This document shows positions 3,247-63,582 of a stretch of 64,000 nucleotides of DNA, in pieces (position 1 is the stretch's first letter; each line of letters opens with the position of its first letter). The notes beneath the pieces were generated by a model that worked only from the letters and a program-made list of their open reading frames with translations, was not told the DNA's origin and made no database searches. The stretch is from a virus, in the IMG/VR virus record IMGVR_UViG_3300035703_000059, positions 1 to 64,000 of that record; one strand, written 5' to 3'. A program made the translations under genes and the position numbers.

Positions 3247-3255
3247 GGGGCATCG

Positions 3256-4023
3256 ATGGCGTCCCAGCTTCTCGTCAACGTGCTGCCGGTCGTGAACCTC
3301 GCGGGGGGCGCGTCCGTCACGCTCGCCCACGGGCTGCGGTCCGGCGACCAGCCGGTAACGCCGACGCAGGTGCTTTGCGACCGGGCCTCGCCTCTCGTCG
3401 TGAGCGCCGCCACCGACATCAGCATCACGGTCACGAATCCGACGGCCTCGCCGCTCACGGCGAACTTCCGCTGCGAGTACGACCACTCGATTCACGCGGT
3501 CGGGGCGACGCCGACGAAGTGGGGCGGGGTGCCGTTCACGGCGGCCGGTGTCGCGGTCTACGGGCAGTTTTTTAGCGACCTCGACCAAGTGATTTCCAAC
3601 GGGACCGGCATCACGCTGATGTCTTTCGAGAACACGTCGAGCGCGAACGGGGTGTCGGTCGTCGACCCCGGCGCCGGTCCGACGCAACTCACCGTGGCTG
3701 CGGCGGGCGTCTACTGCTTCACCCTGTCGCCGCAGCTTCTCAAGACGGCGGGCGGGGGGTCGGGAAAGGTCGCGTTTTGGGCGCGGAAGAACGGCATCGA
3801 TTTGCCGGATTCCGCGTCGGTCGTCGCGCTCACGAACAACCAAGAGAACTTGACGTTCATCGAACTGGTCGTTCCGATGAACGCTGGCGACAATGTCGAA
3901 TGGGCGTGCAACGCGGACGTCGCGAACTGCCGGCTTGAGCACTTCCCCGCGTCTGTCGCGCCCGCGCTTGTGCGTCCTGCCGTCCCCAGCATCATCGCCG
4001 GGGTCAAACTCATCGGAACATAG
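3256..4023 (+). CDS. Spike/fibre protein: N-terminal anchor domain shared with the 8521 ORF plus C1q/BclA-C-like head
   Basis: About 95 N-terminal aa align with the 8521 ORF. The C-terminal half is beta-rich (YGQFFSDLDQ...GVYCFTLSPQL...MNAGDNVEW). Confidence 0.6.
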   Translation: MASQLLVNVLPVVNLAGGASVTLAHGLRSGDQPVTPTQVLCDRASPLVVSAATDISITVTNPTASPLTANFRCEYDHSIHAVGATPTKWGGVPFTAAGVAVYGQFFSDLDQVISNGTGITLMSFENTSSANGVSVVDPGAGPTQLTVAAAGVYCFTLSPQLLKTAGGGSGKVAFWARKNGIDLPDSASVVALTNNQENLTFIELVVPMNAGDNVEWACNADVANCRLEHFPASVAPALVRPAVPSIIAGVKLIGT

Positions 4024-4043
4024 CCCATCGAAGGAGTCCGCTC

Positions 4044-4430
4044 ATGCCGTTCACGATCATCGAGGAACGCCCCTGCCCGCGCCCGACGCTCGACGTCGCG
4101 CTGAACCTGCGAAACCGGAAGAAGGCCATCGACGTCGCGATGTACGGTCCCGCGAACCCGCGACTGCCGAACGACGGCTACTGGAAGAAGCTCGCGGGCG
4201 TGTGGGGAATCTCGCCGGGCGAGGCGCGGACCATGCGCTGCGGGAACTGCGCGGCCTTTGACATCAAGCGGGAGACGCTGGACTGCATCCGCAAGGGCAT
4301 CGGGCGCGACGGCATCGACCCGCAGGACACCGTGGTCGCGGCCGAACTCGGCTACTGCCGGATGTTCGCCTTCAAGTGCGCGGCGTCGCGGACGTGCAGC
4401 GCATGGGTCGTCGGCGGCCCCATTCGTTGA
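4044..4430 (+). CDS. Cys-cluster hypothetical phage protein (CxNC...C...CxxW)
   Basis: RBS AAGGAG. Motifs RCGNCAAF, GYC and KCAASRTCSAW. Confidence 0.7.
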   Translation: MPFTIIEERPCPRPTLDVALNLRNRKKAIDVAMYGPANPRLPNDGYWKKLAGVWGISPGEARTMRCGNCAAFDIKRETLDCIRKGIGRDGIDPQDTVVAAELGYCRMFAFKCAASRTCSAWVVGGPIR

Positions 4431-4438: not shown

Positions 4439-4912
4439 ATGGCCCATCGATGCACGAACGGCCGGACCGACCCCGCGCTGTGGGAGCGCGCCAAGCGGGA
4501 CGCTGTAAAGCGTCTCGGTGGGCGCCATTCGGCGCGCGCGATGCAGCTTGCGGGCAAGCTGTACCGCGAGCGCGGGGGCGGGTACTGCGGTGCGCGGACC
4601 AAGGCGCAGCGGAAGCTGTCGAAGTGGACGCGCGAGGATTGGCGGACCTACACGGGCGAGAAGGCGTGTCGGGGCGCGAAGTGCGACCGATACCTGCCGG
4701 CGGCGGCATGGGAGCGCCTGTCGCCGCAGGAGGCGGCGGCGACGCGGTCGCGCAAGCTGAAAGCGCGGCGGCAGTATGTCCCGAACGCCCCGGCGGCGCG
4801 AGCGGCGGGGAGGCGAGCGCGCGGGGTCGGGGCGCTGCCTTCGATGGATTGGCGCAGCGTTGCGGTGTCGGCGCTTGCGGGGATGGCGCTCATCGCTTTC
4901 GCGCGCCGGTAA
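4439..4912 (+). CDS. DUF5872-like basic protein with C-terminal TM anchor
   Basis: SARAMQL...YRERGGGY...LSKWTREDW...RYLPAAAWERLS matches the family pattern as I recall it. Hydrophobic C-terminus. Start taken at ATG 4439 after GAGG. Confidence 0.7.
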   Translation: MAHRCTNGRTDPALWERAKRDAVKRLGGRHSARAMQLAGKLYRERGGGYCGARTKAQRKLSKWTREDWRTYTGEKACRGAKCDRYLPAAAWERLSPQEAAATRSRKLKARRQYVPNAPAARAAGRRARGVGALPSMDWRSVAVSALAGMALIAFARR

Positions 4913-6325: not shown

Positions 6326-8377
6326 ATGGCTAACGTGAGGAAGTTTCTCTTTTTCGACCCGGCGACGGGTCAGTATCGGGAGCAGACCGCGACCGATACC
6401 ATTCAGATCGCGAACGGCGTTGACGCGCTGGACGCGGTGAACAAGAGCCAGCTTGACGCCGTTGCGGCGGCGGCGGATGCGGCTGTCGAGGCCGAGGAAG
6501 CCCGCGCTCTCGCAGCCGAGGCGGCTCTCCAGAGCGCCATCGATGGCGTGGCGGCCGACCTGTCGGACGAGGTTGATCGCGCGACTGCGGCCGAGCAGGC
6601 CATCGCGGCTGACCTTGCGACCGAGGTTTCGGATCGCGAGGCGGCGATCACGGCTCTCGACGCGGAACTGTCGGCCGACATTCTGGCCGAGCAGACCCGC
6701 GCGCAGGCGGCCGAGGCTTCGCTTCAGTCGGCGCTGACGCAGGAGATCGCGGACCGCGTCGCTGGCGACCTCACCGAGAAGAACCGGGCCGAGGCTGCCG
6801 AGGCTTCGCTGCTGTCGGCGATCAACACCGAGGTCAGCGACCGTATCGCTGCGGTGAGCGCCGAGGCTTCGGCTCGCGCTGCGGCCGACGCGACCGAGCT
6901 GGCTCGCGCGCAGGCGGCGGAAGCCGACCTTCAGTCGCAGATCACCGCCGAGGTTGCGGCGCGTGAGGCCGCGATCACGTCGCTCAACAGCACCCTGTCG
7001 GCGGCCATCACCGCCGAGGAGACGGCCCGCATCGCTGCGGACGGCGTGCTCCAGAGCAACATCGATGATGAGGAGTCGGCTCGTATCGCTGCCGACGCGA
7101 CCCTCACGTCGGACCTCGCGGCCGAGGTTGCGCGTGCGACCGCCGCCGAGAGCGTGCTGACCGCCGACCTCGCGTCGGAGGTTGCGGCTCGCGAGGCCGC
7201 CGTCTCTGCCGAGGCGCTGGCTCGCCAGAACGCCGATGACGGCCTTGCCGCCGACATCGCGGCCGAGGAAGTGCGTGCGCTGGCCGCCGAGGGCGTCCTT
7301 CAGTCGAACATCGATGCCGAGGAAGCGGCGCGTATCGCGGCCGTTTCGGCCGAAGAGGCCGCTCGCATCGCTGGCGATGCCGCGACCCTCGCGTCGGCGA
7401 ACGCCTACGCCGATAGCCTCGTCGAAGGCATCTCGTTCAAGTCGTCCGTGCGCGTCGCGCTGCCGACTTCGTTCGATATGGGCGGCAGCACGATCAATAT
7501 GCCCGCCGACTACGCCAGCGTGGCGTCGGCCCTCGGTACTGAGGCCGGCGACCGCATCCTGCTGATCCAGCCGGAAGGTTCGGCTGGCGCCATGAACGCC
7601 GGTATCTACGTCGTGAACAGCGGCAACACCGCGCTCGTTCGCGCGCCGGATATGGCGGTTGGCTCTGACGCGTCGGGCGCCTACGTCTACGTCGAAGAGG
7701 GCGTGGTCGGAAGCACCATCCCGCACGCCAACCCCGGAACGTCGTTCGTTTGCGCCAACGTCAAGGGTGGCGACATCGTTGGCACCGACCCGCTCGATTT
7801 CGCGGTGTTCCAGCGCGTCGAGAACCTGACCTTCTCCAACGGGGTTCAGAAGATCGGCCTCGACGTTTCGGCCAAGGTCAAGACGAACGGCGCCATCGGC
7901 GCGGGCAGCAACGGGCTTGAGCTGCTGTTCGACACCACCCTGCTGAAGATCGATGGCAGCGGCAACGTCACCATCAACGACCCGCTCGCCGGTGGCCCGC
8001 TGAACATCGCGGACAGCCTGCACGGCCACAGCCACACCAGCGCGGTGCGGCCGTCGACCGCTGCCAACGAGGCGCACTTCGCCAAGTTCAACGGCGACAG
8101 CGCGACGTGGGACTCCTCGTCCTGCATGGCGTTCGTGGAATCGAAGGACGGCAGCGGCACCGCCGTCATCGTGTTCAGCGGCAAGGGCGAGCACTCGTCG
8201 CTCTCCACCGCGCTGTCGGCCTTCTCGGTCGGCGACACGGTGTACGTCGGCGGCGTTGCGGGCGAGTTCTCGGACTTCGCCAGCGTGCCGAGCGGCAAGT
8301 GGGCCATCCCGGTCGGCAAGAAGATGGCGTCGAACGCCCTCCTCGTCGACATCGGAACGGCGCTGCTGAAGGCGTAA
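6326..8377 (+). CDS. Long fibre protein: Ala/Glu coiled-coil stalk, phage-fibre beta domain, C-terminal cement-like domain
   Basis: Repeats ExxRAxAAExxL in 11-, 18- and 22-aa units. Then KSSVRVA...GDRILL...NAGIYVV...VYVEEG, a motif common in phage fibres. Confidence 0.75.
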   Translation: MANVRKFLFFDPATGQYREQTATDTIQIANGVDALDAVNKSQLDAVAAAADAAVEAEEARALAAEAALQSAIDGVAADLSDEVDRATAAEQAIAADLATEVSDREAAITALDAELSADILAEQTRAQAAEASLQSALTQEIADRVAGDLTEKNRAEAAEASLLSAINTEVSDRIAAVSAEASARAAADATELARAQAAEADLQSQITAEVAAREAAITSLNSTLSAAITAEETARIAADGVLQSNIDDEESARIAADATLTSDLAAEVARATAAESVLTADLASEVAAREAAVSAEALARQNADDGLAADIAAEEVRALAAEGVLQSNIDAEEAARIAAVSAEEAARIAGDAATLASANAYADSLVEGISFKSSVRVALPTSFDMGGSTINMPADYASVASALGTEAGDRILLIQPEGSAGAMNAGIYVVNSGNTALVRAPDMAVGSDASGAYVYVEEGVVGSTIPHANPGTSFVCANVKGGDIVGTDPLDFAVFQRVENLTFSNGVQKIGLDVSAKVKTNGAIGAGSNGLELLFDTTLLKIDGSGNVTINDPLAGGPLNIADSLHGHSHTSAVRPSTAANEAHFAKFNGDSATWDSSSCMAFVESKDGSGTAVIVFSGKGEHSSLSTALSAFSVGDTVYVGGVAGEFSDFASVPSGKWAIPVGKKMASNALLVDIGTALLKA

Positions 8378-8470: not shown

Positions 8471-8520
8471 CCGCATCGATGACGTAGCCGGGGGGCGAGC
8501 GAGTAGGGTAGAGTCCGCGC

Positions 8521-10746
8521 ATGGCAAATCAAAAACTCGTCACGGTTGTTTCGGTCGTCGATCTTGCGTCGAGCGCATCGATTACGCTCCCGCACGACTT
8601 GTCGTCTGGCGGTGTCGCCGTCTCTCCAACGATGGTCGCGCCGGACCGCGCGACGCCCATCGTCGTCGAGGCCGTGACCGCGACGAGCGTGACGTTCCGA
8701 AACGACTCGGCGGTGCAGACGAGCGCGAATTTCCGCTTGTCCTACGAGCTTTCTCTCATCGCTGACCCGACGACGGTGACGCCGATTTACTGGGAGGGCG
8801 TGCCGGTCGGTGGTGGCGGGGGCGTGCCGGGGCCGGTGGGTCCGCAGGGGCCGCAAGGTATTCAAGGTCCGGCCGGTCCGCAGGGTATTCAAGGCGCGCA
8901 GGGTGCTCCCGGCGCGAGCGTGACCATCGAAGGCAGCGTTGCGACGGTGGGCGACCTTGCGTCGAAGCCACAGGTTTCGGGGCAAGGTTGGATCGTGCAG
9001 GCCGACGGCGACCTGTACGTTTGGGACGCGTCCTCGTCTGCGTGGGAGAGCGTCGGTCAGATTGTCGGTCCGCAGGGTCCGCAGGGCATCCAAGGTGTGC
9101 AGGGCATCCAAGGTCCGCAGGGTGTCGCGGGTACGCCGGGTGCGGCTGCAACGGTGGCCGTCGGCACGGTGACGGGCCTGCCCTCCGGTTCGTCGCCGAC
9201 CGTGGCAAACGCGGGAACGGCGACTGCGGCTGTGCTGAACTTCGGCATCCCGGCTGGCGCAACGGGCGCAACGGGTCCGGCAGGCCCGGCGGGTCCGGCG
9301 GGTGCGCCGGGAACGAACGCGGTCGTTGGTGTTCCGGCCGGGTCTTACGGTGACGGGGCCAACGTCCCTGCGATTACCGTCAACTCGTCGAATCAGATCA
9401 CGAACATCACCCCGACGCCCATCACGCCTGCCGGTATCGGTGCGGTTCCGACCTCGCGGACCGTCACGGCCGGATCGGGGCTGACCGGCGGCGGCGATCT
9501 TTCGGCCAACCGAACGCTGGCTATCGCGGCTTCCGGCGTCACGCCGGGGTCGTACACGGCGGCGAACATTACGGTTGGTGCCGACGGGCGCGTCACGGCG
9601 GCTTCGTCGGCGGTCGCCTTGCCGGCGAACGTCGTCGACATCCTCCAGTATTTCGGCGACGGGTCGGACGGTGACGTGACCCTGCCGACGAGCGGCACGG
9701 GCATCACGACGCTGACGAAGCCCATGTTCTACAACAGCCTCACCATCCCCGCGAACACGTCGCTTCGGACGAACGGTTGGCCGGTGCTGGTGAAGGGGAC
9801 GCTGGATGTTTCGGCGACGAACCGTTCGCCGGCCATTTTCCCCTACGAGATCAATCCCGGCGACGCTGGCGCCACGCCGACAGCAGGTGGTCTTGGCGCG
9901 ACGACGGCTCCCGGCCTCGGACCGGCGTCAGTAGGCGGTGGTAACGGCGGTGCTGGCGCGACGACAGCGGCATCTGGCTCTCCGGGGTCTGGCGGCGCGG
10001 CCTACTCAAACTCCCTCGGCGCTTCGGGCGGCGGGGGCGGAACGGGCGGGCGGTCGTCGGGCGGGGGCGCGGGCATCGGAAACGCGGGCGGCGCGGGCGG
10101 AACACCGGCGGGGGGGACGCCAATTTGGAGTCTTTCGGGGTCAATCCCACTACCGCTTCAGCCCATCAGCCGGGTCGCGTCAACCACACAGACCTTCCCG
10201 ACGTGCGCGGGTGGCGGAGCCGGCGGCGGAGGCGGCGGGTCGAACGACACGAACGCCGCTGGCGGCGGCGGCGGCGGCGGCGCTGGTGGCAAGGCGCTCA
10301 TTCTGTGGGCGAACACCGTCTCGCGCGGCGCCGGAACAGCCATTCCGTGCATCGCTGCGAAGGGCGGTAACGGGGGTAACGGCGGCAACGCGAACCCGGC
10401 AGCGGGTGTCGGTGGTGGCGGCGCGGGTGGCGGTGGCGGAGGTGGCGGATTCGTCATCTTCGGCTACCTGTCCGTGCCGGGAACGCCGGTGGCCGGATTC
10501 ATCGATGCATCGGGTGGCGACGGTGGAAACGGCGGGAACGGCCGCGCGCTCTCCGGGTCGAACTACGGCCTCGGCGGGCAGGGTGGGCAGGGCGGACGTG
10601 GCGGCGTCATTCTGTCCTACGACATGACCGCCGGAGTTGTGACGGCGGTGGATGATCGAGGTACGGCCGCAGCCACGGCAACGACGGCGACGAACTCATC
10701 CGGCACGCTCGGAACGCAGGGCGTGCAGTCGAAGGTCACGATCTAA
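8521..10746 (+). CDS. Collagen-repeat and glycine-rich fibre/spike protein
   Basis: GPQGPQGIQG triplet repeats, long poly-Gly C-terminal region, N-terminal domain shared with the 3256 ORF. Confidence 0.85.
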   Translation: MANQKLVTVVSVVDLASSASITLPHDLSSGGVAVSPTMVAPDRATPIVVEAVTATSVTFRNDSAVQTSANFRLSYELSLIADPTTVTPIYWEGVPVGGGGGVPGPVGPQGPQGIQGPAGPQGIQGAQGAPGASVTIEGSVATVGDLASKPQVSGQGWIVQADGDLYVWDASSSAWESVGQIVGPQGPQGIQGVQGIQGPQGVAGTPGAAATVAVGTVTGLPSGSSPTVANAGTATAAVLNFGIPAGATGATGPAGPAGPAGAPGTNAVVGVPAGSYGDGANVPAITVNSSNQITNITPTPITPAGIGAVPTSRTVTAGSGLTGGGDLSANRTLAIAASGVTPGSYTAANITVGADGRVTAASSAVALPANVVDILQYFGDGSDGDVTLPTSGTGITTLTKPMFYNSLTIPANTSLRTNGWPVLVKGTLDVSATNRSPAIFPYEINPGDAGATPTAGGLGATTAPGLGPASVGGGNGGAGATTAASGSPGSGGAAYSNSLGASGGGGGTGGRSSGGGAGIGNAGGAGGTPAGGTPIWSLSGSIPLPLQPISRVASTTQTFPTCAGGGAGGGGGGSNDTNAAGGGGGGGAGGKALILWANTVSRGAGTAIPCIAAKGGNGGNGGNANPAAGVGGGGAGGGGGGGGFVIFGYLSVPGTPVAGFIDASGGDGGNGGNGRALSGSNYGLGGQGGQGGRGGVILSYDMTAGVVTAVDDRGTAAATATTATNSSGTLGTQGVQSKVTI

Positions 10747-15422: not shown

Positions 15423-15432
15423 GGAGTCATCG

Positions 15433-15666
15433 ATGGCAGAGCTTCCGAAGAAGAACTCCAAGAGCGCGGTCGCGCTTGCGTTTGCGCTGGGGACCGGCGC
15501 GGGTGCCGGCGGGCATCAGCTTTCCGTGAACTCGCCGGTCCATCTGACGACGATGGGCGAGACGCCGATTGCCGACGAGTGGGTGTGCGAGCCGGAGGGG
15601 GGCATTTTCGACGCCCCGGTCATTTGCAGGTACAAGACGGTGTCCGCACCGGACGCTGGAAACTAA
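15433..15666 (+). CDS. Small hypothetical protein
   Basis: Start context AAGGAGTCATCG-ATG. Hydrophobic N-terminal region. Confidence 0.6.
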   Translation: MAELPKKNSKSAVALAFALGTGAGAGGHQLSVNSPVHLTTMGETPIADEWVCEPEGGIFDAPVICRYKTVSAPDAGN

Positions 15667-17160: not shown

Positions 17161-17186
17161 TTCGGTCATCAACTAGGAGCGCATCG

Positions 17187-17588
17187 ATGGCGTCGTGTCC
17201 GGTCATCCGCAAAGAGTTTCAGCGCCTCACGAACATGAGCGCCGCTGAGATTCGGTCGTGGGCGAAGGATGACCGGGCGAAGTGCTTTTCGCAGAAGGCA
17301 ACGCGGCGACGGCTCACGCAGCCCTCAATCTATCGAGGGCATCGTGTGCCGTCGCTCGCGAACCTTCGCAAGCGCGCCTTCACGGGGGCGTGGTCGGAAG
17401 AGGACTGCTGGTACGGGAACATCGTCAACGGGTTCAACAAGCGGTTCTTGAAGATGAAGCAGAAGCACGGCTGTACGGACGGGATCGTCGTCGCGCTGCG
17501 GAATTGGGGCCACCAGCCGAAGTCGTGCGCGGTCCCGACGAAGAAATGCAAGCGCGAGCATGAGCCGCGCGTATCGAAGAAGGGATGA
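17187..17588 (+). CDS. DUF3140-like basic protein
   Basis: FQRLTNMSAAEIRSW...VALRNWGHQP matches the DUF3140 pattern (NM..EL..W ... SL.NWGHDP) as I recall it. Confidence 0.65.
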   Translation: MASCPVIRKEFQRLTNMSAAEIRSWAKDDRAKCFSQKATRRRLTQPSIYRGHRVPSLANLRKRAFTGAWSEEDCWYGNIVNGFNKRFLKMKQKHGCTDGIVVALRNWGHQPKSCAVPTKKCKREHEPRVSKKG

Positions 17589-22784: not shown

Positions 22785-22863
22785 GAAGCCCCGCGCCGGC
22801 ATCGATGCCGGTGCATTGACCCCCAACTGACGCCTGCGGGCGTCGCTCGACAGGAGAACTACA

Positions 22864-31925: not shown

Positions 31926-31934
31926 GAGTCATCG

Positions 31935-45143: not shown

Positions 45144-45261
45144 CGATTCTCTCCTCGCCGCGTGATGCGGCTTCCGTGAAACGTCCAACCGTTTCCGTCA
45201 GACCCCAACCATCGATGGCCGGAGGCTGACGGAAACGGCGCGCGGATGCGCGCCGGTCCCC

Positions 45262-52136: not shown

Positions 52137-54787
52137 CAGACCTCACTCCATCGAAGCCCAATCTTGGGCTTCGCCGCAAAGGACACGTCCGGCAAACCCG
52201 GCACGGTCCGGTTCATCGCTTCCTTGATCATTCGCGCGACCGTGTTCGCATCGCACTCGCACCCCGGCGGGCAGAATCCGAACTCGCGCTCCTTCTCGAT
52301 CACCTTGCCGTCCGCATCCAGCGGCCGGTACTCGTCGTGCGGACACGGCACCTCAAACGTCAACGCGTCGTGGCATTGGTTGACGAGGCCCGTCCCCGGC
52401 CCCCACAACTCGCACTTGAGCGGACCTTCGACGAGGTCGAACGTCGCCATGTGGATGATGTGCGCGCCCGCGCTCTGGACGCCGAAATTGATGATCTCGT
52501 TGAACTTCTCGCCGTCGAGGAAGTCACGCCGACGGCCGAGAACCGGGTCGACGATGTACCCCACCGTCCGATAGGTGTCCAAGCACTCGTCCCACCACTT
52601 CTGAAGCTGCGGAATCTCCCGCAGCCACCGCTTCCGAAGCGTGGCGACTTGATTCAGCGTCAAGTCGGGGTACATCAGCGTGCCGTCCGCGTTCTCCGCG
52701 CTCGTCACCAGCCCATGCACCGTCTCGTCGCCGGAGCCATAGAACGACGCGTAAGCGATGCTCTTCGCGATTTTTCGCAGCTTGTCCCATTGGTCCGACT
52801 TCGGCACCAGCCCGTCGAACTGCTTTCCGAACATCATCGATGCCGTCTGCGCGTGCGGATCGCCGCCAGCCGAAAACGTCTCCAAGTAGCGCGGGATTTG
52901 GGCCACCGACGCGATGATCCGAAGCTCCAACTGGTCCGCGTCCGCGCCCACCAGCACCCGCCCCGGCTCCGCTTTCACCAGCGCCCGCAGGTGCTTCGGG
53001 AAGTTCTGGGCGTTCGGATTCGATGACGACAGCCGGCCCGACGTCGTCCCGTGCGCGTTGTAGTCCGGGTGAATCCGCCCGTCCGGCAGAATGAGGCCGC
53101 GAGCCGCCTCATCCTGCTCGTCCTCGCTGCGAAACTGCACCCCATCGACCGGCTGGCCGTAGGGGACGAGCCGCGTGACGTAGGTGCCGTACTCCTTCGC
53201 CACCTTGCGATACCGTCGCAAGGAATCGATGAACTTCACGATGTTCTCGCGGTCCCGGTTCTGCGTCCGCAGCAGGCGAAGCGACTCGTCCGACGTCGAG
53301 GGGTCGCCCAGCTTCGTCATCTCGGCCGGCGTCAGCCCCCACTTGTCGAAAAGCAGGTCGCGAATCTGATAGGTGCTGTTCGGATTGAGGTTCGGATTCT
53401 CGGCGTTGACGCGCGTCTCCGCGAGGTAGTCGGCGATCTTGACCCGAAGCTCGTCCGACACCTTGTTCCGCAGCGGCCGGTCCACCCACATCCCCGTCCG
53501 ATGCAGGTCCGCGCAAATCGCCTGCACCCGATGGTCGAATCCCACGACGTTTTCCTGCCGCCGCAGCTTCACCGCGTCCGCCAGCTTCGGCATCACGCGC
53601 GCCGTCACCACGCAGTCGACGGCACAGTAGGTCGTCAACTCCTCGTCGGTCTGCGCCACCTCCGCCGTGTGCGCGGCCTTCCATGACGTGACGTCGGTGT
53701 AGACGCTGCCGATGTACCCCAGCTTGTGCGGCAGTTCGCTCTCGACGCTGCGGTGCAAAAGGATGGTGTCGAGGAGCGGCTTCGGCGTGACGCCGAAATG
53801 CTGCTCGATGACGATGCGGTCGAAGTACCCCGCGTTGTGGCCGACCTTCAGCTTCGTGTCATCGATGAAGAAGTCCCGCAGGATGCCCCGCAGCCGCAGC
53901 AGGTCCGACGCGGTGTACCACGGCGGATCGACGAGCGAACCGTTCGGGCCTTCGATGCTCTTGAGCGAGACGACGATGGACGCGTTCTCGTTCGCGATGC
54001 CCACGCACTTGAGTTCCGCGATGAGCGGGTCGTCGAACGTCGTCTCGACGTCGTAGATGTACGGGATGTCCGTGCGCGCGAGGAACGCCTCGACCTCGTC
54101 GGGCGACGGCGTCAAATCGATGTACGGGTGCTGCCAGCCCAGCCCACCCCGGAACCATCGGAACGCGCGTGACAGGTCGCTGCGGAACGCCCGCGTCCAG
54201 CGCCGCGCCCGCAGCACGAACGCGGGGTGCAGCGTCGGCAGCACCTTCACGTCCTTCGGCTTGTCGCCGCCGGTGATGAAGTTCCCGATGACGTCGAACC
54301 GGCCCTCGACCGGGCCACCGCGAATCTCGGTGACGCTCGCCGCCTGCCCCGTCACCGCTTGGAAGGCGATCTTCCCCAGCGTGATGATGTTCTTCGTCTG
54401 GCCGATGTCGTGCATCAGCCTCGGTCGGCAGCAATCGATGGGGTGCGGCAGGGGGTCTTCTTTCGCCGCGATCCGCTTCTTGTTGTCCCGCGACAGCTTC
54501 ACCAGCACGCGGTCCAGTTCGTTCTCTGGTGGCCGGCACGCGAGGGCCGTCGTGATCGAGACGGCGCCGCGCGGGATGCCCACCGCCTTCAGCGACTCGT
54601 TGAACTCGATGCCTGCCGAGTCGACGAGCGGGCGCTGCTCCTCGACGTCCTTCTCACGCGGCGACTCCGTCACGACCACCGCGACAGAACCGGGCCGAAT
54701 CTCGGCCGGGACCGGGACACCCGCGCGCGCCTTTCGCAGAACGCACTCGTCGCATCGCGCGCCGTCGTCTCGCGGGTCGTAGATCAT
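52136..54787 (-). CDS. Family A DNA polymerase with N-terminal family-4 UDG-like domain and 3'-5' exonuclease
   Basis: UDG-like CDEC...TESP...CRPP.N...LHPAFVLR. Exonuclease DVET, HNAGYFD and YCAVD. Polymerase GRLSSSNPNAQN, DQLELR, RKIAKSIAYASFYG and HDAL. Confidence 0.95.
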   Translation of the reverse strand: MIYDPRDDGARCDECVLRKARAGVPVPAEIRPGSVAVVVTESPREKDVEEQRPLVDSAGIEFNESLKAVGIPRGAVSITTALACRPPENELDRVLVKLSRDNKKRIAAKEDPLPHPIDCCRPRLMHDIGQTKNIITLGKIAFQAVTGQAASVTEIRGGPVEGRFDVIGNFITGGDKPKDVKVLPTLHPAFVLRARRWTRAFRSDLSRAFRWFRGGLGWQHPYIDLTPSPDEVEAFLARTDIPYIYDVETTFDDPLIAELKCVGIANENASIVVSLKSIEGPNGSLVDPPWYTASDLLRLRGILRDFFIDDTKLKVGHNAGYFDRIVIEQHFGVTPKPLLDTILLHRSVESELPHKLGYIGSVYTDVTSWKAAHTAEVAQTDEELTTYCAVDCVVTARVMPKLADAVKLRRQENVVGFDHRVQAICADLHRTGMWVDRPLRNKVSDELRVKIADYLAETRVNAENPNLNPNSTYQIRDLLFDKWGLTPAEMTKLGDPSTSDESLRLLRTQNRDRENIVKFIDSLRRYRKVAKEYGTYVTRLVPYGQPVDGVQFRSEDEQDEAARGLILPDGRIHPDYNAHGTTSGRLSSSNPNAQNFPKHLRALVKAEPGRVLVGADADQLELRIIASVAQIPRYLETFSAGGDPHAQTASMMFGKQFDGLVPKSDQWDKLRKIAKSIAYASFYGSGDETVHGLVTSAENADGTLMYPDLTLNQVATLRKRWLREIPQLQKWWDECLDTYRTVGYIVDPVLGRRRDFLDGEKFNEIINFGVQSAGAHIIHMATFDLVEGPLKCELWGPGTGLVNQCHDALTFEVPCPHDEYRPLDADGKVIEKEREFGFCPPGCECDANTVARMIKEAMNRTVPGLPDVSFAAKPKIGLRWSEV

Positions 54788-54989: not shown

Positions 54990-55502
54990 TCACCTCGTCA
55001 TCAAGTCGGTGTAGCTGAAGCGCTCTTTGAGGGCTTCGTCGACACCCAGCGGCTCGACGGACAGCTTGATCAACTCGCCGTCGTACAGAAAGATGTGCTT
55101 CGGGACCGTCACGCGGCCCTCGACGAACGCGATGCCGGTGTCGGTGATCCGCCAGTACCCCGCGTGCGGAGAGTCGGTTTCGGTCGGCGAAAGCACGTTG
55201 CCGGTTGCCTCCTCAACGAGTCCCCAATAACGCATCTTGGCGAAATCCCCGCCGCGCGCGGCGCTGAACCGGGGGCCGAGAGACGAGGGAACGTGAATCC
55301 ACTCGCGGATGTCGCCCGCATCCTTGTAGATCTTCCACATCTCGATGAGCGCGCGCGCCATCGCGCTCGTCATGGTCCGCCGGTAGACCTTCGCGAACTG
55401 GTCGCAGCACGGGCAGCGCACTCCGTCATCGATGTTCTGGCGCACCCACTCGCGGGCGCTGTTCAACGTCGTCTCGGTCAGTTCGACCTTCTCGGTTTCC
55501 AT
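54990..55502 (-). CDS. Hypothetical protein with CPCC zinc ribbon
   Basis: METEKV...CPCCDQ...RYWGLVE...GYWRIT. Confidence 0.7.
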   Translation of the reverse strand: METEKVELTETTLNSAREWVRQNIDDGVRCPCCDQFAKVYRRTMTSAMARALIEMWKIYKDAGDIREWIHVPSSLGPRFSAARGGDFAKMRYWGLVEEATGNVLSPTETDSPHAGYWRITDTGIAFVEGRVTVPKHIFLYDGELIKLSVEPLGVDEALKERFSYTDLMTR

Positions 55503-56245: not shown

Positions 56246-56377
56246 CTTACGCTCCGTTTGCCATCGATGTATCGCGTCCCGTGCGGGTCGACAGCGGTGC
56301 CGCCTGTTTTGCCTCTGTGCGACGAAGAGGGGTCTGAGGGCGTGGGACGATGAGGTTTTGCCCTCGAAATCGTTATC

Positions 56378-56620: not shown

Positions 56621-57523
56621 TCAGCCCAACTTCGGCTTCGGCTTGTCCGTGAACATCGACAGGACGTCGGCTTTCGCGCGCATCAGCACCGCGCGGTCCA
56701 GCGAATCCCGCAACACCCAGCGGACGTGTAAATCGTTGTCGGTCTGCTCTCTCGCGAGTTCGATGGCCTCCGCGACCAGCCCCGACTCATTCGCCGGGTC
56801 GTTGAACATCGCGACGGCCAGCGCCTCGACGAGTTCTTCCTGCCACTCCAGCTTCGGGGCGCGCGGTATGACGTACCCCGCGCTCCGCAGAATCTCCGCC
56901 ACGTTCATCGGCGCCCGGTCCGGCGTGACGCCGTGCCTGTCTTTCGTGACCCACGACGGGTCATCGATGGTGCAGCGGTAGCACCCGTGCCAGCCTCGCC
57001 GCGTCTGATCGAACGCGGCACGCAGCACCACGTCGCAGGCCGTCGGCACGTCCTCTGGCAACCGCCCCGGCAGGCGCGGACCGCCGCGAACGAACACCCC
57101 GTTGACGGTCCGGGGCGTCGATTCGTGCGCCGTGAGGACAACGTGCATCCCCGCGTGCCTCGCGGTGTCGCGGAACTCCAGCACCGCGTCTCGCAGCGCG
57201 CCCCACAGCTTGAACCCCGAAAACTTCTTCTCAAGCTGTGCAACCGTCGACTCTGCGAGGAGCGAGAAGTCATCGACGATGATGGCCGAGTACCGCTTGT
57301 CCTTGCCGCGCTCACGCACGATCTTGGTCGCGTCGAGTATCGATGCGGCTTCCGTGTGGTCGGGGACGTGGCCGACGACCAGATGGGCCGGCTTGATTGC
57401 TCCCGGTGGGGCGACGAACAGCCCCGTGGGGAACGAGAAGAGGAGGTCCGTGGTCTTTCCGATGCCCGATGGCCCGTAGATCGCGACCACCGCGTTCGCG
57501 CCAGAGAAAGGAGCCGCGCTCAT
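56621..57523 (-). CDS. Sak4-like (AAA_24) recombination ATPase
   Basis: IYGPSGIGKTT, AIIVDDFS, VVLTAHE, CDVV and KDR. Confidence 0.88.
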   Translation of the reverse strand: MSAAPFSGANAVVAIYGPSGIGKTTDLLFSFPTGLFVAPPGAIKPAHLVVGHVPDHTEAASILDATKIVRERGKDKRYSAIIVDDFSLLAESTVAQLEKKFSGFKLWGALRDAVLEFRDTARHAGMHVVLTAHESTPRTVNGVFVRGGPRLPGRLPEDVPTACDVVLRAAFDQTRRGWHGCYRCTIDDPSWVTKDRHGVTPDRAPMNVAEILRSAGYVIPRAPKLEWQEELVEALAVAMFNDPANESGLVAEAIELAREQTDNDLHVRWVLRDSLDRAVLMRAKADVLSMFTDKPKPKLG

Positions 57524-61750: not shown

Positions 61751-61998
61751 CAGTCACTCCCCCATCCGTCCGCGCCGTCCCATTCGGCCCACGGACTGTC
61801 GTTTGGGTCGAACACGTCGCCCCATTGAATCGGACACTCTGAACCGTCGAGTTCCCGCGTCCCGCGACACTTGGGGAACGCCATGCACCCCAAGAACTTG
61901 CCCCTCTCCCGCCGGTTCGTTCGGACCACCATCTCACCCGCGCATCGCGGACACGCGTGCTCGACCTTCGATGGCAGCTTGACGCCCCACGCGCCCAT
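61750..61998 (-). CDS. Second topoisomerase-I-type C4 zinc-ribbon protein
   Basis: CPRCAGEMVVRTNRRERGKFLGCMAFPKCRGT. Confidence 0.8.
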   Translation of the reverse strand: MGAWGVKLPSKVEHACPRCAGEMVVRTNRRERGKFLGCMAFPKCRGTRELDGSECPIQWGDVFDPNDSPWAEWDGADGWGSD

Positions 61999-62758
61999 CA
62001 CTTGTCCCCCTTGTCGAGTTCCGTGATGAGCGCGTCGGCGTAGCGCACCGCTTCCGACGCGTGCCACTCGATGTCGAGTCCGGTCAGATTCTCCTTCGAA
62101 TTCGCCAGAATCCCCTGCATCGCCGCCGTCGCGATGCGCTCACGCCGCCCTGCTTCCGGCGCGGCCACGCGCAGCTTCTCGATCTCGGCCTTCAGCGTTT
62201 CGGCTTCCTGCCGGACCGCGTAGACCTCGTTGTCCCGCTCATGGACGCCCATAATCGCCGCGCTACCCGCCTCACACGCATCTGCGAGTCCCGGCATCTT
62301 CACGTCGTTTCTCAGCCACGACGCCGCCTGCTTCAGCTTCCCCGCCATATCCTCATGCCACGGTGTCATCACTTCTCCCCCGTCGTCTGTTCCAGAATCT
62401 CTGCCGCCTTCGCACACGCCGCGTCCGAGTCCGCAAACTCACCCGGCGCCGTCACCGTTCCGTCGGGCCAGTAGACGTTCAGCACCCACGTTTTCAGCGG
62501 CGTCGGCAACACCTCAAACCGCAACCGGCGCCCGTAGTGGTAGGCCATGAGTCGGAACGGGCGCCCGCGAGTGTCGTTCCGACTGTGCCAACGCAGAATC
62601 GGTTTCCCCTCCAGCTCCTCGTCAATCTCTTGGATCAACTCCTCATACATCGGAACGATGCTATCGATGGGCCGGCAGATCGAAAACGAGTCGTCGGTGT
62701 CGTCGAGGCACAGCTTCGCTCGACACAGCAGTTCCTCCAGCCTCTCTTCCCGCGTCAT
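61998..62758 (-). CDS. Two hypothetical ORFs (61998-62369, 62369-62758)
   Basis: The first ends RRERIATAAMQGILAN...AVRYADALI, a common small-phage-protein motif. Confidence 0.6.
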
Positions 62759-63582
62759 CACTCCTCCACCGTCGCCGTAATCACGGCACTCTCGCCCCAC
62801 CGACAAATCTCATACGCCTCGCACGTCCCGTAGGCCGTGACGCACGTCTGCTCCGACAACGCCTTCGGCCAATCCCACGGGTCTGTGTCCGACAACGAGT
62901 CGATGACCCGCCGCGCGTGCGCCACCGACAACGTGAACTTCTGCCGGGCCACCGGCGCGGGGTCCACGACCTGCCTCGACATCTCGCCGGACAGCGAGAC
63001 GAGATTCAGCTTCACGCCGCCGAACTCGGAGCCGTAGACCGCCGCTCCGAAGTTCTGCATCCCAAGGAACTGCCCCGACAACGTGTACCGCAGCGGAATC
63101 TTGGCATCGATGCGCCCGACGGTCTTGTGGTCCCAAATGTAGACCTTGCCGTTCGGCTCCCGCACGACGAGGTCGAGCCTCTGCGTGAACGGCTGTCCCG
63201 CAATATCCGCGCGGAACACCTCTTCGATGGCCATCGGCTCCACGCGCTCCGACGCGTAGTGCGCCGCGTACTTGCGGTAGAGCAGGTGGATTTCCTCGAC
63301 GTATGCCTCGCCGCCAATCTTCTTCGCCGTCTCGACCACCGCGTCATACGGCAGCGCCCACTCGCCGGGGTCACGGCCCTCTTGCTGCGACTGCATCCGC
63401 GCGTAGTGCTGCGCGAGCGCCGCGTGCATCAGCGACCCTCGCAGCAGCGGCGCCGACTTGGTCTTTTGCAGCACGTTGAGCCGGAACTTGTAGGCGAACA
63501 ACTGCGGACACCGCAGCGCCGTCTCGACCGCGTGCCAACCCCATTCCCCCGACGAGCCGGCATCGATGATTTTCCCGGTCAT
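62758..63582 (-). CDS. PD-(D/E)XK Cas4/RecB-like exonuclease
   Basis: N-terminal CP, GSLMH, RLDLV, WDHKT, QFLG and C-terminal C...C..C..C (Fe-S staple pattern). Confidence 0.88.
   Translation of the reverse strand: MTGKIIDAGSSGEWGWHAVETALRCPQLFAYKFRLNVLQKTKSAPLLRGSLMHAALAQHYARMQSQQEGRDPGEWALPYDAVVETAKKIGGEAYVEEIHLLYRKYAAHYASERVEPMAIEEVFRADIAGQPFTQRLDLVVREPNGKVYIWDHKTVGRIDAKIPLRYTLSGQFLGMQNFGAAVYGSEFGGVKLNLVSLSGEMSRQVVDPAPVARQKFTLSVAHARRVIDSLSDTDPWDWPKALSEQTCVTAYGTCEAYEICRWGESAVITATVEE

What the first reader, a model, noticed from the sequence alone, without database searches (positions are those of the whole stretch)
3251..63568. Highly iterated palindrome CATCGATG across the genome, often supplying the start codon
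Seen: about 45 exact CATCGATG copies by hand count (e.g. 3251, 4445, 6538, 8474, 15428, 17182, 22800, 31930, 33234, 36042, 41635, 42301, 44373, 52835, 60972, 63561). A simple base-composition model at about 68% GC predicts under one. One-off variants (AATCGATG, TTCGATG, CATCGATT) are also common. Many genes on both arms begin RBS-N-(A/T)TCG-ATG. Established: cyanobacterial HIP1 (GCGATCGC) is a similar iterated palindrome linked to DNA methylation, and phages usually avoid palindromes. Inference: a HIP-like signal around a ClaI/TaqI-type core (ATCGAT/TCGA), reflecting host methylation or repair, a protein-binding site, or a translation-initiation context. It could also fingerprint the host.
Basis: seen in the sequence. 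Interest (0 to 1): 0.85.

Follow-up and report, generated by a model that had tools for sequence, protein, structure and literature searches.

The report
Phage-wide CATCGATG palindrome array
An uncultured 75-kb temperate phage writes the 8-letter palindrome CATCGATG into its DNA about 30 times more often than chance, bending codon choice and start-codon spacers to do so, most likely as docking sites for its own ParB/KorB-type DNA-clamp protein rather than as a host methylation mark or a translation signal.

Summary
There are 46 exact CATCGATG in the window (1.3 expected) and 51 in the 75.4-kb genome, where it is the most over-represented 8-mer. Asp after ATC uses GAT 64% of the time, against 22% overall. 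The nearest relative (73% polymerase identity) has the same amino acids at these sites but ordinary codons and no array. Copies sit where they cost least: the SD–ATG spacer (11–12 starts) and Ile-Asp codons (28 of 34 coding copies). Supplying the start codon is therefore a by-product. Related phages carry GAATCGATTC, which has no ATG, 59 times, evenly spaced. The phage methyltransferase is ruled out, because array and enzyme each occur without the other. No enriched host was found in 305 bacterial genomes. An orphan ParB/KorB-like protein (46703–47746, −; structural matches KorB, ParB, Noc) is present in all array-bearing genomes and in none of 21 relatives without this array. A distant homolog lies beside a tandem CCTCGAGG array. 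Binding is inferred, not shown. This scan has reported similar phage palindrome arrays with ParB-like proteins on other DNA.

The parts
3251..3258 (.). CATCGATG copy; its ATG is the start of gene 3256-4023(+), after RBS AAGGGG
4445..4452 (.). CATCGATG copy in coding sequence, frame CAT-CGA-TG (gene 4439-4912 +)
6538..6545 (.). CATCGATG copy in coding sequence, frame xxC-ATC-GAT-Gxx (Ile-Asp), gene 6326-8377(+)
7060..7067 (.). CATCGATG copy, Ile-Asp frame, gene 6326-8377(+)
7309..7316 (.). CATCGATG copy, Ile-Asp frame, gene 6326-8377(+)
8474..8481 (.). CATCGATG copy, intergenic, 39 nt upstream of gene 8521-10746(+)
10500..10507 (.). CATCGATG copy, Ile-Asp frame, gene 8521-10746(+)
15428..15435 (.). 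CATCGATG copy supplying the start ATG of gene 15433-15666(+), RBS AAGGAG
17182..17189 (.). CATCGATG copy supplying the start ATG of gene 17187-17588(+), RBS TAGGAG
17736..17743 (.). CATCGATG copy, Ile-Asp frame, gene 17593-18507(+)
18753..18760 (.). CATCGATG copy, Ile-Asp frame, gene 18517-18846(+)
22800..22807 (.). CATCGATG copy, intergenic, centre of the 16-bp palindrome CCGGCATCGATGCCGG (22796-22811) just after a gene end
25497..25504 (.). CATCGATG copy, Ile-Asp frame, gene ending at 26631(+)
27446..27453 (.). CATCGATG copy, Ile-Asp frame, gene 26643-27950(+)
28347..28354 (.). CATCGATG copy, Ile-Asp frame, gene 28231-28818(+)
29573..29580 (.). CATCGATG copy, frame xCA-TCG-ATG (Ser-Met), gene 28828-30927(+)
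30357..30364 (.). CATCGATG copy, Ile-Asp frame, gene 28828-30927(+)
31433..31440 (.). CATCGATG copy, Ser-Met frame, gene 30928-31731(+)
31930..31937 (.). CATCGATG copy supplying the start ATG of gene 31935-32306(+), RBS TAGGAG
33234..33241 (.). CATCGATG copy supplying the start ATG of gene 33239-33556(+)
35546..35553 (.). CATCGATG copy supplying the start ATG of gene 35551-36000(+)
36042..36049 (.). CATCGATG copy supplying the start ATG of gene 36047-36328(+), RBS CAGGAG
36625..36632 (.). CATCGATG copy, intergenic, at the junction of the two arms next to the integrase gene
39420..39427 (.). CATCGATG copy, Ile-Asp frame, minus-strand gene 39142-39606
40620..40627 (.). CATCGATG copy, Ile-Asp frame, gene 39658-40767(-)
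41635..41642 (.). CATCGATG copy supplying the start ATG of gene 41341-41637(-), RBS GAGGAG; first copy of the dense cluster 41635-45217
41857..41864 (.). CATCGATG copy, Ile-Asp frame, gene 41705-42058(-)
42191..42198 (.). CATCGATG copy, frame CAT-CGA-TG, gene 42055-42303(-)
42301..42308 (.). CATCGATG copy supplying the start ATG of gene 42055-42303(-), RBS TAGGAGG
43287..43294 (.). CATCGATG copy, Ile-Asp frame, gene 43219-43473(-)
43389..43396 (.). CATCGATG copy, Ile-Asp frame, gene 43219-43473(-)
43571..43578 (.). CATCGATG copy, Ile-Asp frame, gene 43473-43637(-)
44066..44073 (.). CATCGATG copy, Ile-Asp frame, gene 43743-44375(-)
44373..44380 (.). CATCGATG copy supplying the start ATG of gene 43743-44375(-), RBS TAGGAGG
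44643..44650 (.). CATCGATG copy supplying the start ATG of gene 44385-44645(-), RBS TAGGAGG
44897..44904 (.). CATCGATG copy, Ile-Asp frame, gene 44655-45143(-)
45210..45217 (.). CATCGATG copy, intergenic, 66 nt upstream of gene 44655-45143(-); last copy of the cluster
49231..49238 (.). CATCGATG copy, Ser-Met frame, inside the HTH_17 gene 49210-49485(-)
52835..52842 (.). CATCGATG copy in the polymerase gene (GCA-TCG-ATG); the sister genome has GCG-TCG-ATG
53860..53867 (.). CATCGATG copy in the polymerase gene (TTC-ATC-GAT-GAC); the sister has TTC-ATC-GAC-GAG
55427..55434 (.). CATCGATG copy, Ile-Asp frame, gene 54990-55502(-)
56262..56269 (.). CATCGATG copy, intergenic, 16 nt upstream of the start of gene 55652-56245(-)
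56962..56969 (.). CATCGATG copy (ACC-ATC-GAT-GAC, T-I-D-D); the sister has ACG-ATC-GAC-GAC for the same residues
60972..60979 (.). CATCGATG copy at the 3' end of gene 60967-61176(-); probably also the start ATG of ORF 60780-60974(-), after RBS AAGGAGGG
63105..63112 (.). CATCGATG copy (CGC-ATC-GAT-GCC, R-I-D-A); the sister has CGG-GTC-GAC-GCC (R-V-D-A)
63561..63568 (.). CATCGATG copy, Ile-Asp frame, gene 62758-63582(-)
46703..47746 (-). Candidate reader: orphan ParB/KorB/Noc-family protein (347 aa) with an N-terminal ParB-CTPase-like domain and an HTH DNA-binding domain
   Evidence: phrog_1033 E 6e-20; ParB_N below cut-off; PDB sequence hits KorB, Spo0J, Noc; AF2 pLDDT 90.9; Foldseek top hits KorB, ParB, Noc; co-occurs with the array
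49210..49485 (-). Small HTH_17/MerR-type DNA-binding protein (91 aa) in the same conserved module (AAA-ATPase, HTH, gap, ParB-like). Alternative reader or possible KorA-like partner; this is speculative
   Evidence: Pfam HTH_17 E 1.7e-8; homologs in G001 and G002 only
36705..37697 (-). Tyrosine integrase. Shows the phage is temperate, which gives context for a silencing role
   Evidence: PF00589 E 4e-12; conserved in G001-G003; G003 classed as provirus

Best explanation
CATCGATG is a recognition site on double-stranded DNA that selection has written many times into this temperate phage's genome. It is placed wherever it costs least: in the unconstrained spacer between the Shine-Dalgarno sequence and the ATG, in other short intergenic gaps, and in Ile-Asp dicodons by choosing ATC-GAT. 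The most likely reader is the phage's own orphan ParB/KorB/Noc-family protein (46703-47746, minus strand). By analogy with KorB, a dimer would load at each palindrome as a CTP-dependent clamp and slide about a kilobase, so that roughly 50-90 sites coat or silence the whole 75-kb genome. Site density is highest over the small-gene operon at 41.6-45.2 kb, next to the gene. Shown here: the enrichment, its DNA-level origin, its lineage specificity, the independence from methyltransferases, the fold of the protein, and its co-occurrence with the array. Inferred: that this protein binds the site, that it acts as a clamp, and what the coating is for (prophage silencing, genome organisation or protection).
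For: Enrichment is 46 vs 1.3 in the window and 51 in the genome. DNA-level selection: GAT is used for 64% of Asp after ATC, against 22% overall and 12% after ATT. A synonymous shuffle gives 5.65±2.08 against 34 observed. At orthologous codons the sister genome encodes the same residues with GAC, CCG, ACG and GCG and has no motif. Perfect dyad symmetry with no information outside the 8 bp fits a symmetric dimer on duplex DNA. Relatives G001 and G002 carry GAATCGATTC 59 and 38 times against about 0.1 expected, evenly spaced (CV 0.49-0.66, P<=2e-4). Positions turn over while density is kept: only 2 shared codon positions at 52% protein identity. ATCGAT-core arrays occupy one polymerase clade plus G000, and the sister clade has none. 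R47, G67, G87, R90 and N124 are invariant in 39 homologs. No ParA is present. ParB_N is present in G000, G001, G002 and G328 in a conserved syntenic slot, and absent from 21 relatives lacking this array, 7 of them complete. The ParB-likes of G001 and G002, which share a motif, are 35% identical to each other but 23-26% to G000's. A homolog at 27% identity in L187 lies 1.5 kb from a tandem array of 11 CCTCGAGG, which has the same C-N-TCGA-N-G form. 12 of 51 copies cluster just downstream of the gene. KorB loads at palindromic OB sites and silences over more than 1 kb (PMC11790492).
Against: No binding evidence exists. 8 bp is shorter than known parS, OB and NBS sites (14-16 bp). The G000 protein scores below Pfam's ParB_N cut-off (23 bits against 26.3). 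The co-occurrence rests on only two or three independent evolutionary events, and the whole module co-varies, including an HTH protein. G001 and G002 share a motif but their predicted recognition helices are not obviously alike. Of 72 other viral contigs with ParB-like proteins at about 30% identity, only 1-2 have iterated palindromes. L065 (a complete genome with no ParB_N) and L273 have other palindrome arrays. The sister genome lacks the array and its ParB status could not be read. G000's array is randomly spaced (CV 0.95) and fuzzier than that of G001.
Confidence: 0.5

Rival explanations
1. The array is read by a different phage-encoded dimeric DNA-binding protein. One candidate is the immunity repressor of this temperate phage, acting like the stoperators of Cluster A mycobacteriophages to block transcription across the prophage. 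Another is the HTH protein at 49210-49485.
For: The phage is temperate (integrase; G003 is a provirus). The site density of 1 per 1.2-1.5 kb is similar to stoperator arrays (26 sites per ~50 kb genome; PMC9283540). Motif identity differs between related phages, as immunity specificities do. Copies are enriched at gene boundaries and over the small-gene operon. An HTH_17 protein co-varies with the array.
Against: No repressor was identified; the early proteins have no Pfam family. Two thirds of copies lie inside genes. Stoperators are 13-bp, asymmetric and read by a monomer, whereas these sites are perfect palindromes. Clade-B relatives are also temperate but have no array.
Confidence: 0.2
2. 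This is a HIP1-like imprint of the host. A host methyltransferase, repair system or DNA-binding factor recognises ATCGAT-core palindromes, and the phage mirrors or exploits it. The flanks could create overlapping methylation sites: GAATCGATTC contains two GANTC sites and GATCGATC two GATC sites.
For: The motif is an exact 8-bp palindrome with a restriction-site core, as HIP1 is (PMC5861425; PMC13756078). In G001, 61 of 63 ATCGAT lie inside the motif and perfect copies outnumber all one-mismatch variants 59 to 12, an all-or-none pattern typical of enzyme sites. Some relatives avoid ATCGAT entirely. The host is unknown, so it has not been examined.
Against: G001 and G002 keep the same motif while their restriction-avoidance profiles differ strongly (GATC 35/432 vs 511/360; CGATCG 0/63 vs 81/71). 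The array largely follows viral phylogeny. The sister genome at 73% identity lacks it. In 305 bacterial genomes the maximum density is 0.14 per kb, against 0.68 per kb in the phage. The phage methyltransferase is dissociated from the array in both directions.
Confidence: 0.13
3. This is a neutral by-product of a context-dependent mutation or biased-repair process that creates ATCGAT-core words without any reader.
For: One-off variants are also enriched in G000. The array appeared or vanished quickly, since it is absent in the sister.
Against: A perfect palindrome with sharp 8-bp edges. Even spacing and near absence of one-mismatch variants in G001 and G002. The same 10-mer is maintained across 52% protein divergence with site turnover. 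Amino-acid changes (V to I) and an Ile-Asp excess of 97 vs 52 were recruited to build sites. All of this sits against a background of extreme palindrome avoidance.
Confidence: 0.05
4. This is a translation-initiation or mRNA-level signal: the ATCG spacer before ATG tunes initiation, and coding copies are incidental.
For: 25 of 104 starts have TCG at positions -3 to -1, and 20 have ATCG, against 6.5% of internal Met codons. In G001 five copies abut the SD sequence.
Against: Only 12 of 51 copies are at starts, and 28 are in frame as Ile-Asp inside genes. The relatives' motif has no ATG and half its copies are intragenic. Strict palindromy is unnecessary for an RNA signal.
Confidence: 0.04

Closest known systems
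KorB and its OB operators on IncP plasmid RK2 (ParB-CTPase family; PMC11790492; PDB 8qa8, 8qa9)
   Same: A ParB-family protein without a classical centromere-only role. It loads at short palindromes dispersed over a mobile element and silences genes more than 1 kb away by sliding. KorB is the best sequence and structure match to the phage protein. A small HTH gene lies in the same module, reminiscent of KorA.
   Different: OB is 16 bp and RK2 carries about a dozen (the number is from my memory). Here the site is 8 bp, with 51 exact copies (about 89 with variants) in 75 kb, and most are written into coding sequence. No ParA/IncC partner is present. The element is a temperate phage. Binding has not been tested.
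Noc and its NBS sites in Bacillus subtilis (PMC8429893, PMC7383237)
   Same: An orphan ParB paralog that nucleates on palindromes scattered along a whole chromosome rather than at one centromere. It is a structural match to the phage protein. Specificity in this family shifts through a few residues.
   Different: NBS is 16 bp and far sparser per kb. Noc tethers DNA to the membrane to block cell division, and nothing suggests that role here.
HIP1 (GCGATCGC) of cyanobacteria (PMC5861425, PMC13756078)
   Same: An 8-bp perfect palindrome with a restriction-site core, 15-300-fold over-represented, maintained by selection inside genes, and quasi-periodic.
   Different: HIP1 is a property of host chromosomes across a phylum and is methylated by host enzymes. 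Here the array is specific to the phage lineage and absent from the sister phage. No enriched bacterium was found, and methyltransferases are dissociated from it.
Stoperators of Cluster A mycobacteriophages (PMC9283540, PMC6550527)
   Same: Dozens of copies of one short site spread over a temperate phage genome at about 1 per 1.5-2 kb. The site differs between related phages.
   Different: Stoperators are 13 bp, asymmetric, orientation-dependent, mostly intergenic, and read by a monomeric two-domain repressor.
Actinobacteriophage and plasmid parABS centromeres (from memory: Dedrick et al. 2016; N15 dispersed sopC sites)
   Same: Phage ParB proteins with arrays of short repeats.
   Different: Those arrays are clustered next to parAB and serve partition of extrachromosomal prophages. 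Here there is no ParA, there is an integrase, and the sites are genome-wide.

Membership tests
ParB/KorB/Noc CTPase family (candidate reader protein, 46703-47746 minus strand) | ParB N-terminal (CTPase) domain fold | tested here: met
   Foldseek top hits are KorB 8qa9/8qa8, ParB 7bnr/6sdk/7bm8 and Noc 7ng0, all at probability 1.00, on a model with pLDDT 90.9. Pfam ParB_N is below the cut-off for G000 (23 bits against 26.3) but above it for G001 (32.4 bits). phrog_1033 E 6e-20.
ParB/KorB/Noc CTPase family (candidate reader protein, 46703-47746 minus strand) | Central helix-turn-helix DNA-binding domain following the N-terminal domain | tested here: met
   phmmer aligns residues 25-187 to KorB residues 19-179, including GKSKADVARAMG against GKKKGDIAKEIG. 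The Foldseek alignment to the KorB-KorA-DNA complex spans 244-253 columns.
ParB/KorB/Noc CTPase family (candidate reader protein, 46703-47746 minus strand) | Conserved nucleotide-binding motifs (GxxR arginine patch; box III Asn/Arg) | tested here: met
   G87, R90, N124 and R47 are invariant in the 39-sequence alignment. Mapping these onto the ParB boxes rests on my memory of the family.
ParB/KorB/Noc CTPase family (candidate reader protein, 46703-47746 minus strand) | CTP binding, clamp closure and specific binding to the cognate palindrome | not testable with these tools
   Needs biochemistry. No protein-DNA prediction tool was available.
Classical ParABS partition system | Adjacent ParA (deviant Walker A) ATPase | tested here: not met
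   No KGGxGK[ST] motif in any protein of G000, G001 or G002. No ParA/CbiA family in the G001 proteome scan. An integrase is present.
HIP1-type highly iterated palindrome | 8-bp perfect palindrome at least 15-fold over-represented and kept inside genes by selection | tested here: met
   About 30-fold over-represented. Supported by the synonymous shuffle and the sister comparison.
HIP1-type highly iterated palindrome | Property of the cellular (host) chromosome, shared across a bacterial lineage | tested here: inconclusive
   No enriched genome among 4 MAGs and 301 genomes of one phylum; maximum 0.14 per kb. The host is unknown, so the sample may miss it. The array is absent from the sister phage.
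HIP1-type highly iterated palindrome | Methylated by cognate DNA methyltransferases | not testable with these tools
   No methylation data. The phage N6_N4 MTase (genome 65817-66935) is present in the array-less sister and absent from array-rich G001 and G002.
Stoperator array (Cluster A mycobacteriophages) | Asymmetric 13-bp site, orientation-dependent, read by a monomeric repressor | tested here: not met
   The site is a perfect 8-bp palindrome with no information in the flanks. Reference facts are from PMC9283540.
Start-associated sequences (Cluster K mycobacteriophages; from memory) | Motif confined to the region immediately upstream of start codons | tested here: not met
   Only 11-12 of 51 copies are at starts; 34 lie within coding sequence.

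The most novel reading that the evidence does not exclude
A group of temperate phages has repeatedly acquired an orphan KorB/ParB-like clamp together with a lineage-specific, TCGA-centred palindrome (CATCGATG, GAATCGATTC, GATCGATC). The palindrome is then written by codon choice across the whole genome within a short evolutionary time, since it is absent in a sister at 73% polymerase identity. This would give a self-addressed, genome-wide coating or silencing system whose address code evolves like an immunity specificity. It would also be the shortest known cognate site for a ParB-family protein.
Probability: 0.4. Interest if true: 0.75.

Novelty: new variant of a known kind. Interest (0 to 1): 0.62.

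Why it matters
If the ParB-like protein reads these sites, phages use ParB-CTPase clamps not only for partition but to address their entire genome. Loading sites would lie about every 1.2–1.5 kb, matching the kilobase sliding range reported for KorB. That would be a new mode of genome-wide regulation or protection in viruses. It would also be a natural experiment in how a DNA-binding specificity and its roughly 50–90 target sites co-evolve. It gives a concrete, cheap experiment (protein plus 8-bp duplex). It also shows that a strong sequence signal can reshape codon usage, dipeptide content and start-codon contexts, which matters for gene callers and for interpreting "translation signals". This scan has now seen comparable arrays in several unrelated phages, which suggests a widespread phenomenon. 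My searches of the paper library found no description of it.

Tried and rejected
1. Codon or dipeptide artefact: rejected by the synonymous and codon shuffles, by Asp codon choice and by the sister comparison.

2. Phage methyltransferase as the cause: rejected. PF01555 is absent in G001 and G002. The G001 proteome has no MTase family at all. The MTase ortholog is present in the array-less sister. There is no D12 or C5 MTase in G000.

3. Classical ParABS: no ParA.

4. Host enrichment: 4 MAGs and 301 genomes of one phylum show at most 0.14 copies per kb. This is a weak negative because the host is unknown. The 301 include 11 unpublished genomes (G129, G010, G183, G235, G057, G248, G027, G157, G091, G277, G097). 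Only the aggregate maximum is used, and it comes from G260, G264 and G137, which are not on that list.

5. Literature search for CATCGATG and GAATCGATTC returned only primers or unrelated hits, plus the Cra operator.

6. Exact 16-mer scan of the viral collection for RBS+motif gave chance hits only.

7. A single-protein polymerase query found nothing in the viral collection; the alignment query worked.

The records behind L206 and other metagenome loci are not held.

9. The word-indexed homolog search for the ParB-like protein found only itself.

10. The generality test failed: only 1-2 of 72 viral contigs with ParB-like proteins at about 30% identity have iterated palindromes. A search for closer ParB-like relatives in the viral collection found none above 33% identity.

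11. The genome-contig scan gave only 4 MAG loci and no host.

12. GGTCGACC in the sister (5 vs 0.7) is not significant after 256 tests.

13. No complex-prediction job was sent, because protein-DNA binding cannot be tested with it.

Full report
**What the window is.** The window is the first 64 kb of a 75,406-bp uncultured virus record with direct terminal repeats, at 65.6% GC. My own gene call uses GC3 periodicity plus a codon model. It gives 104 genes at about 85% coding, with a plus-strand arm up to about 36.3 kb and a minus-strand arm from 36.7 kb on. The phage encodes the following:
- a tyrosine integrase at the arm junction (36705–37697, −; PF00589 E 4e-12);
- a family-A DNA polymerase with an N-terminal UDG-like domain;
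- a tRNA-Asn;
- a β-class N6/N4 DNA methyltransferase just beyond the window (genome 65817–66935).

**Checking the observation.** Dinucleotide-preserving shuffles give 1.34 on average and at most 5. The genome holds 51 copies, and the reversed control word holds none. It is the most over-represented 8-mer. The core ATCGAT is 114 against about 20 expected. The variants AATCGATG/CATCGATT (38 vs 2.4) and CTTCGATG/CATCGAAG (48 vs 3.5) are also enriched. The motif has sharp edges, with no information content outside the 8 bp.

**Is it only codon or dipeptide usage?** No.
- Of the 51 copies, 11 supply a start ATG directly after an RBS, and a twelfth at 60972 probably does. 28 of the 34 intragenic copies lie in the frame xxC-ATC-GAT-Gxx, and 6 copies are intergenic.
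- In a genome with about 85% GC3, Asp is GAT in 22% of cases overall. After ATC it is GAT in 64% (57 of 89), and after ATT in 12%.
- Shuffling synonymous codons within each gene, which keeps protein sequence and codon usage, gives 5.65±2.08 copies against 34 observed (z=13.6). Permuting codons gives 1.68.
- Even the Ile-Asp dipeptide is in excess, 97 vs 52.
- The most direct evidence comes from the sister genome fragment L206, which has 73% polymerase identity. At orthologous positions it encodes the same residues with ordinary codons. Examples are ACG-ATC-GAC-GAC against ACC-ATC-GAT-GAC in G000, CCG-ATC-GAC-TGC against CCC-ATC-GAT-TGC, and GCG-TCG-ATG against GCA-TCG-ATG. Elsewhere L206 has Val where G000 has Ile.
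- L206 has no CATCGATG in 12.9 kb, where G000 has nine in the equivalent stretch.

**Start codons.** 25 of 104 starts are preceded by TCG and 20 by ATCG (11 CATCG, 9 AATCG). Only 6.5% of internal Met codons are preceded by TCG. These starts concentrate in the minus-arm operon of small genes. I read this as cheapest placement rather than as a translation signal. The spacer between the SD sequence and the ATG is unconstrained, and the ATG already supplies three of the eight letters. The relatives support this reading (next paragraph).

**Relatives.** The polymerase defines a large family. I fetched 80 loci from the viral collection, 80 from metagenomes, and four whole records, G001, G002, G003 and G005.
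- **G001 motif.** G001 is complete at 85.8 kb. It carries AATCGATT 61 times (0.47 expected), GAATCGATTC 59 times (0.08 expected) and CGAATCGATTCG 34 times. 61 of its 63 ATCGAT lie inside the motif.
- **Other ATCGAT-core arrays.** G002 has the same word 47 and 38 times (8-mer and 10-mer). L024 and L209 share it, and L030 has GATCGATC.
- **No ATG.** This motif contains no ATG. Even so, half of G001's copies sit in the roughly 18% of the genome that is non-coding. They lie typically right after a stop codon, abutting the next SD (GAATCGATTC-GGAG-N5-6-ATG) or preceding a hairpin. The coding copies prefer one frame, GAA-TCG-ATT, in 24 of 30 cases.
- **Spacing.** The arrays are spaced more evenly than chance: whole-genome CV is 0.64–0.66 in G001 and 0.49 in G002, with P≤2e-4. 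G000's exact copies are randomly spaced (CV 0.95), although all 114 ATCGAT give CV 0.79 (P=0.004).
- **Perfect versus near-perfect copies.** In G001 the perfect 10-mers outnumber all one-mismatch variants by 59 to 12.
- **Site turnover.** G001 and G002 are only 52% identical in orthologous proteins. They share just 2 coding sites at the same codon, with several others nearby. Sequence and density are maintained while positions turn over.
- **Phylogeny.** A quick maximum-likelihood polymerase tree puts G000 outside two sister clades. Clade A (G001, L030, L024, G002) all have ATCGAT-core arrays. Clade B (G003, L019–L023, L027) has none and nearly no ATCGAT.
- **Lability.** With L206 lacking the array, the trait is labile. 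It needs at least two gains or two losses.

**Background of palindrome avoidance.** All these genomes avoid palindromes to an extreme degree, each with its own profile. In G000, 34 of 64 hexamer palindromes are absent, and 21 of those have at least 5 expected (CCGCGG 0/111, CGATCG 0/92, CCCGGG 0/45, CTCGAG 0/43). G001 has no AATT (79 expected) and no TTAA (31 expected), and GATC is 35/432, whereas G002 has GATC 511/360 and CGATCG 81/71. G001 and G002 therefore face different restriction environments but keep the identical array. This argues that the array is not set by the host's restriction-modification repertoire.

**Methylation.** The G000 methyltransferase is CcrM/DpnA/RsrI-like, and its specificity is unknown. 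It is not the explanation. G001 and G002 lack PF01555. The whole G001 proteome has no methyltransferase family at E≤1e-5. The array-less sister L206 does have the ortholog, at 53% identity. Host methylation remains untested.

**Host imprint.** The host is unknown. Four MAGs holding polymerase relatives have 0.008–0.058 copies per kb. 301 genomes sampled across the phylum of one of them reach at most 0.14 per kb. The phage has 0.68 per kb. This is a weak negative.

**A candidate reader.** The protein at 46703–47746(−) has the following properties:
- It matches ParB-like PHROGs (E 6e-20), and matches ParB_N just below Pfam's cut-off.
- Its best PDB sequence matches are KorB (E 5e-5, covering the N-terminal and HTH domains), Spo0J and Noc.
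- A profile of the three viral proteins finds 21,251 ParB-superfamily members.
- An AlphaFold model has pLDDT 90.9 and pTM 0.73. Its best structural matches are KorB in the KorB–KorA–DNA complex (TM 0.68–0.70 on the target), several ParBs and Noc.
- R47, G67, G87, R90 and N124 are invariant in 39 homologs.
- No ParA-type ATPase exists in G000, G001 or G002, so this is an orphan ParB, like Noc.

**Co-occurrence of the protein and the array.** A ParB_N protein is present in G000, G001, G002 and G328, which is G002's near-identical twin. In each it sits in the same syntenic slot: AAA-ATPase, HTH protein, a non-coding gap of about 1.5 kb, then the ParB-like gene. It is absent from G003, G004, G005 and 18 further relatives, seven of them complete. 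The ParB-likes of G001 and G002 are 35% identical to each other and 23–26% identical to G000's, which matches their shared versus different motifs. In G000, 12 of the 51 copies cluster at 41.6–45.2 kb, just downstream of the gene.

**An independent link from L187.** An unrelated viral contig, L187, encodes a homolog at 27% identity. 1.5 kb upstream of that gene lie eleven CCTCGAGG in a tandem array of 15-bp repeats. This is a centromere-like cluster, and its palindrome has the same C-N-TCGA-N-G form.

**Mechanistic reading.** KorB is a CTP-dependent clamp. It loads at palindromic OB sites, slides, and silences promoters more than 1 kb away, and a small HTH partner locks it in place (PMC11790492). 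Loading sites every 1.2–1.5 kb would let such a clamp cover a whole phage genome. This fits the even spacing in G001 and G002, and the palindromy needed to serve two divergent arms. For a temperate phage the obvious uses are prophage-wide silencing, genome organisation or protection. All of this is inference.

**Caveats.**
- Nothing shows binding.
- The site is half the length of known parS, OB and NBS sites.
- The co-occurrence rests on few independent events, and a neighbouring HTH gene co-varies too.
- The recognition helices of G001 and G002 are not obviously alike.
- Possession of a ParB-like protein does not generally predict arrays; only 1–2 of 72 contigs show one.
- L065 (complete, no ParB_N) and L273 have other palindrome arrays.
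- The sister's ParB status could not be read.

**Earlier findings of this scan.** After I had reached the ParB link, a look-up showed that other follow-ups of this scan had reported palindrome arrays with ParB/KorB-like proteins in unrelated phages. One of those arrays uses TGCAATCGATTGCA, which shares the AATCGATT core. These are unchecked AI notes on other genomes. I count them as leads, not as evidence.

**Verdict.** The HIP-like, DNA-level and protein-binding readings hold. Host methylation and translation context do not hold as the primary cause. The best explanation is a genome-wide array of loading sites for the phage's orphan ParB/KorB-like protein, at confidence about 0.5. The broader claim, that this is a phage-lineage-specific protein-recognition array under selection, I hold at about 0.85. 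It is a new variant of a known kind.

Noticed in passing
whole window; also G001, G002, G003, G005, L206: Extreme avoidance of palindromes, with a different profile in each genome. In G000, 34 of 64 hexamer palindromes are absent (CCGCGG 0/111, CGATCG 0/92, CCCGGG 0/45, CTCGAG 0/43, TCCGGA 0/36) and TTAA is 3/42. G001 has zero AATT (79 expected), zero TTAA (31 expected) and GATC 35/432. This suggests very heavy restriction pressure.
   Followed up: partly
window 47747-49209: A non-coding gap of about 1.46 kb lies between the HTH_17 gene and the ParB-like gene. A gap of similar size sits in the same syntenic position in G001 (47.7-49.3 kb), where it holds two motif copies. Another first-stage note proposes a structured RNA here.
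   Followed up: no
window 36705-37697 (-): A tyrosine integrase at the junction of the two arms, conserved in G001-G003. Relative G003 is classed as a provirus, so this little-known virus group is temperate.
   Followed up: partly
window 52136-54787 (-): A family-A DNA polymerase with an N-terminal UDG-like domain and a 3'-5' exonuclease domain. It defines a large family of uncultured viruses, and some members carry inteins in the polymerase.
   Followed up: partly
window 18922-18996 (-): A tRNA-Asn (GTT) encoded antisense within the plus-strand structural arm. It is 85% identical over 60 nt to tRNA-Asn genes of Mycobacterium phages.
   Followed up: no
window 22796-22811: A 16-bp perfect palindrome, CCGGCATCGATGCCGG, centred on a motif copy 12 nt after a gene end. 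Some G001 copies likewise sit at the centre of longer inverted repeats.
   Followed up: no
L187:8135-8540: A tandem array of 15-bp repeats, each carrying CCTCGAGG (11 copies), 1.5 kb upstream of a ParB-like gene (L187:10001-10567). It looks like a centromere-type parS cluster.
   Followed up: partly
L065 (record G310), L273, L020, L051: Other relatives show different over-represented palindromes: CCTTAAGG 7/0.19 in L065, whose complete genome has no ParB_N; CCCATGGG 9/0.56 in L273; CTCGAG 34/7 in L020 and 46/15.6 in L051.
   Followed up: no
L206 (sister genome fragment): The top palindromic 8-mer is GGTCGACC (5 vs 0.70; GTCGAC 25 vs 12.7), again of the form NN-TCGA-NN. It is not significant after multiple testing.
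   Followed up: partly
genome 65817-66935 (-), beyond the window (L006:5817-6935): A beta-class N6/N4 DNA methyltransferase (PF01555, E 4e-31) of unknown specificity, itself containing two CATCGATG copies. An ortholog is present in the sister genome.
   Followed up: partly
window 12111-13316, 22864-24838: Structural genes have almost no Pfam or PHROG matches, apart from a LysM/endolysin-like hit. Three adjacent genes of about 200 aa each are conserved in G001-G003. Other first-stage notes propose a tailless, membrane-containing virion, which I did not test.
   Followed up: no
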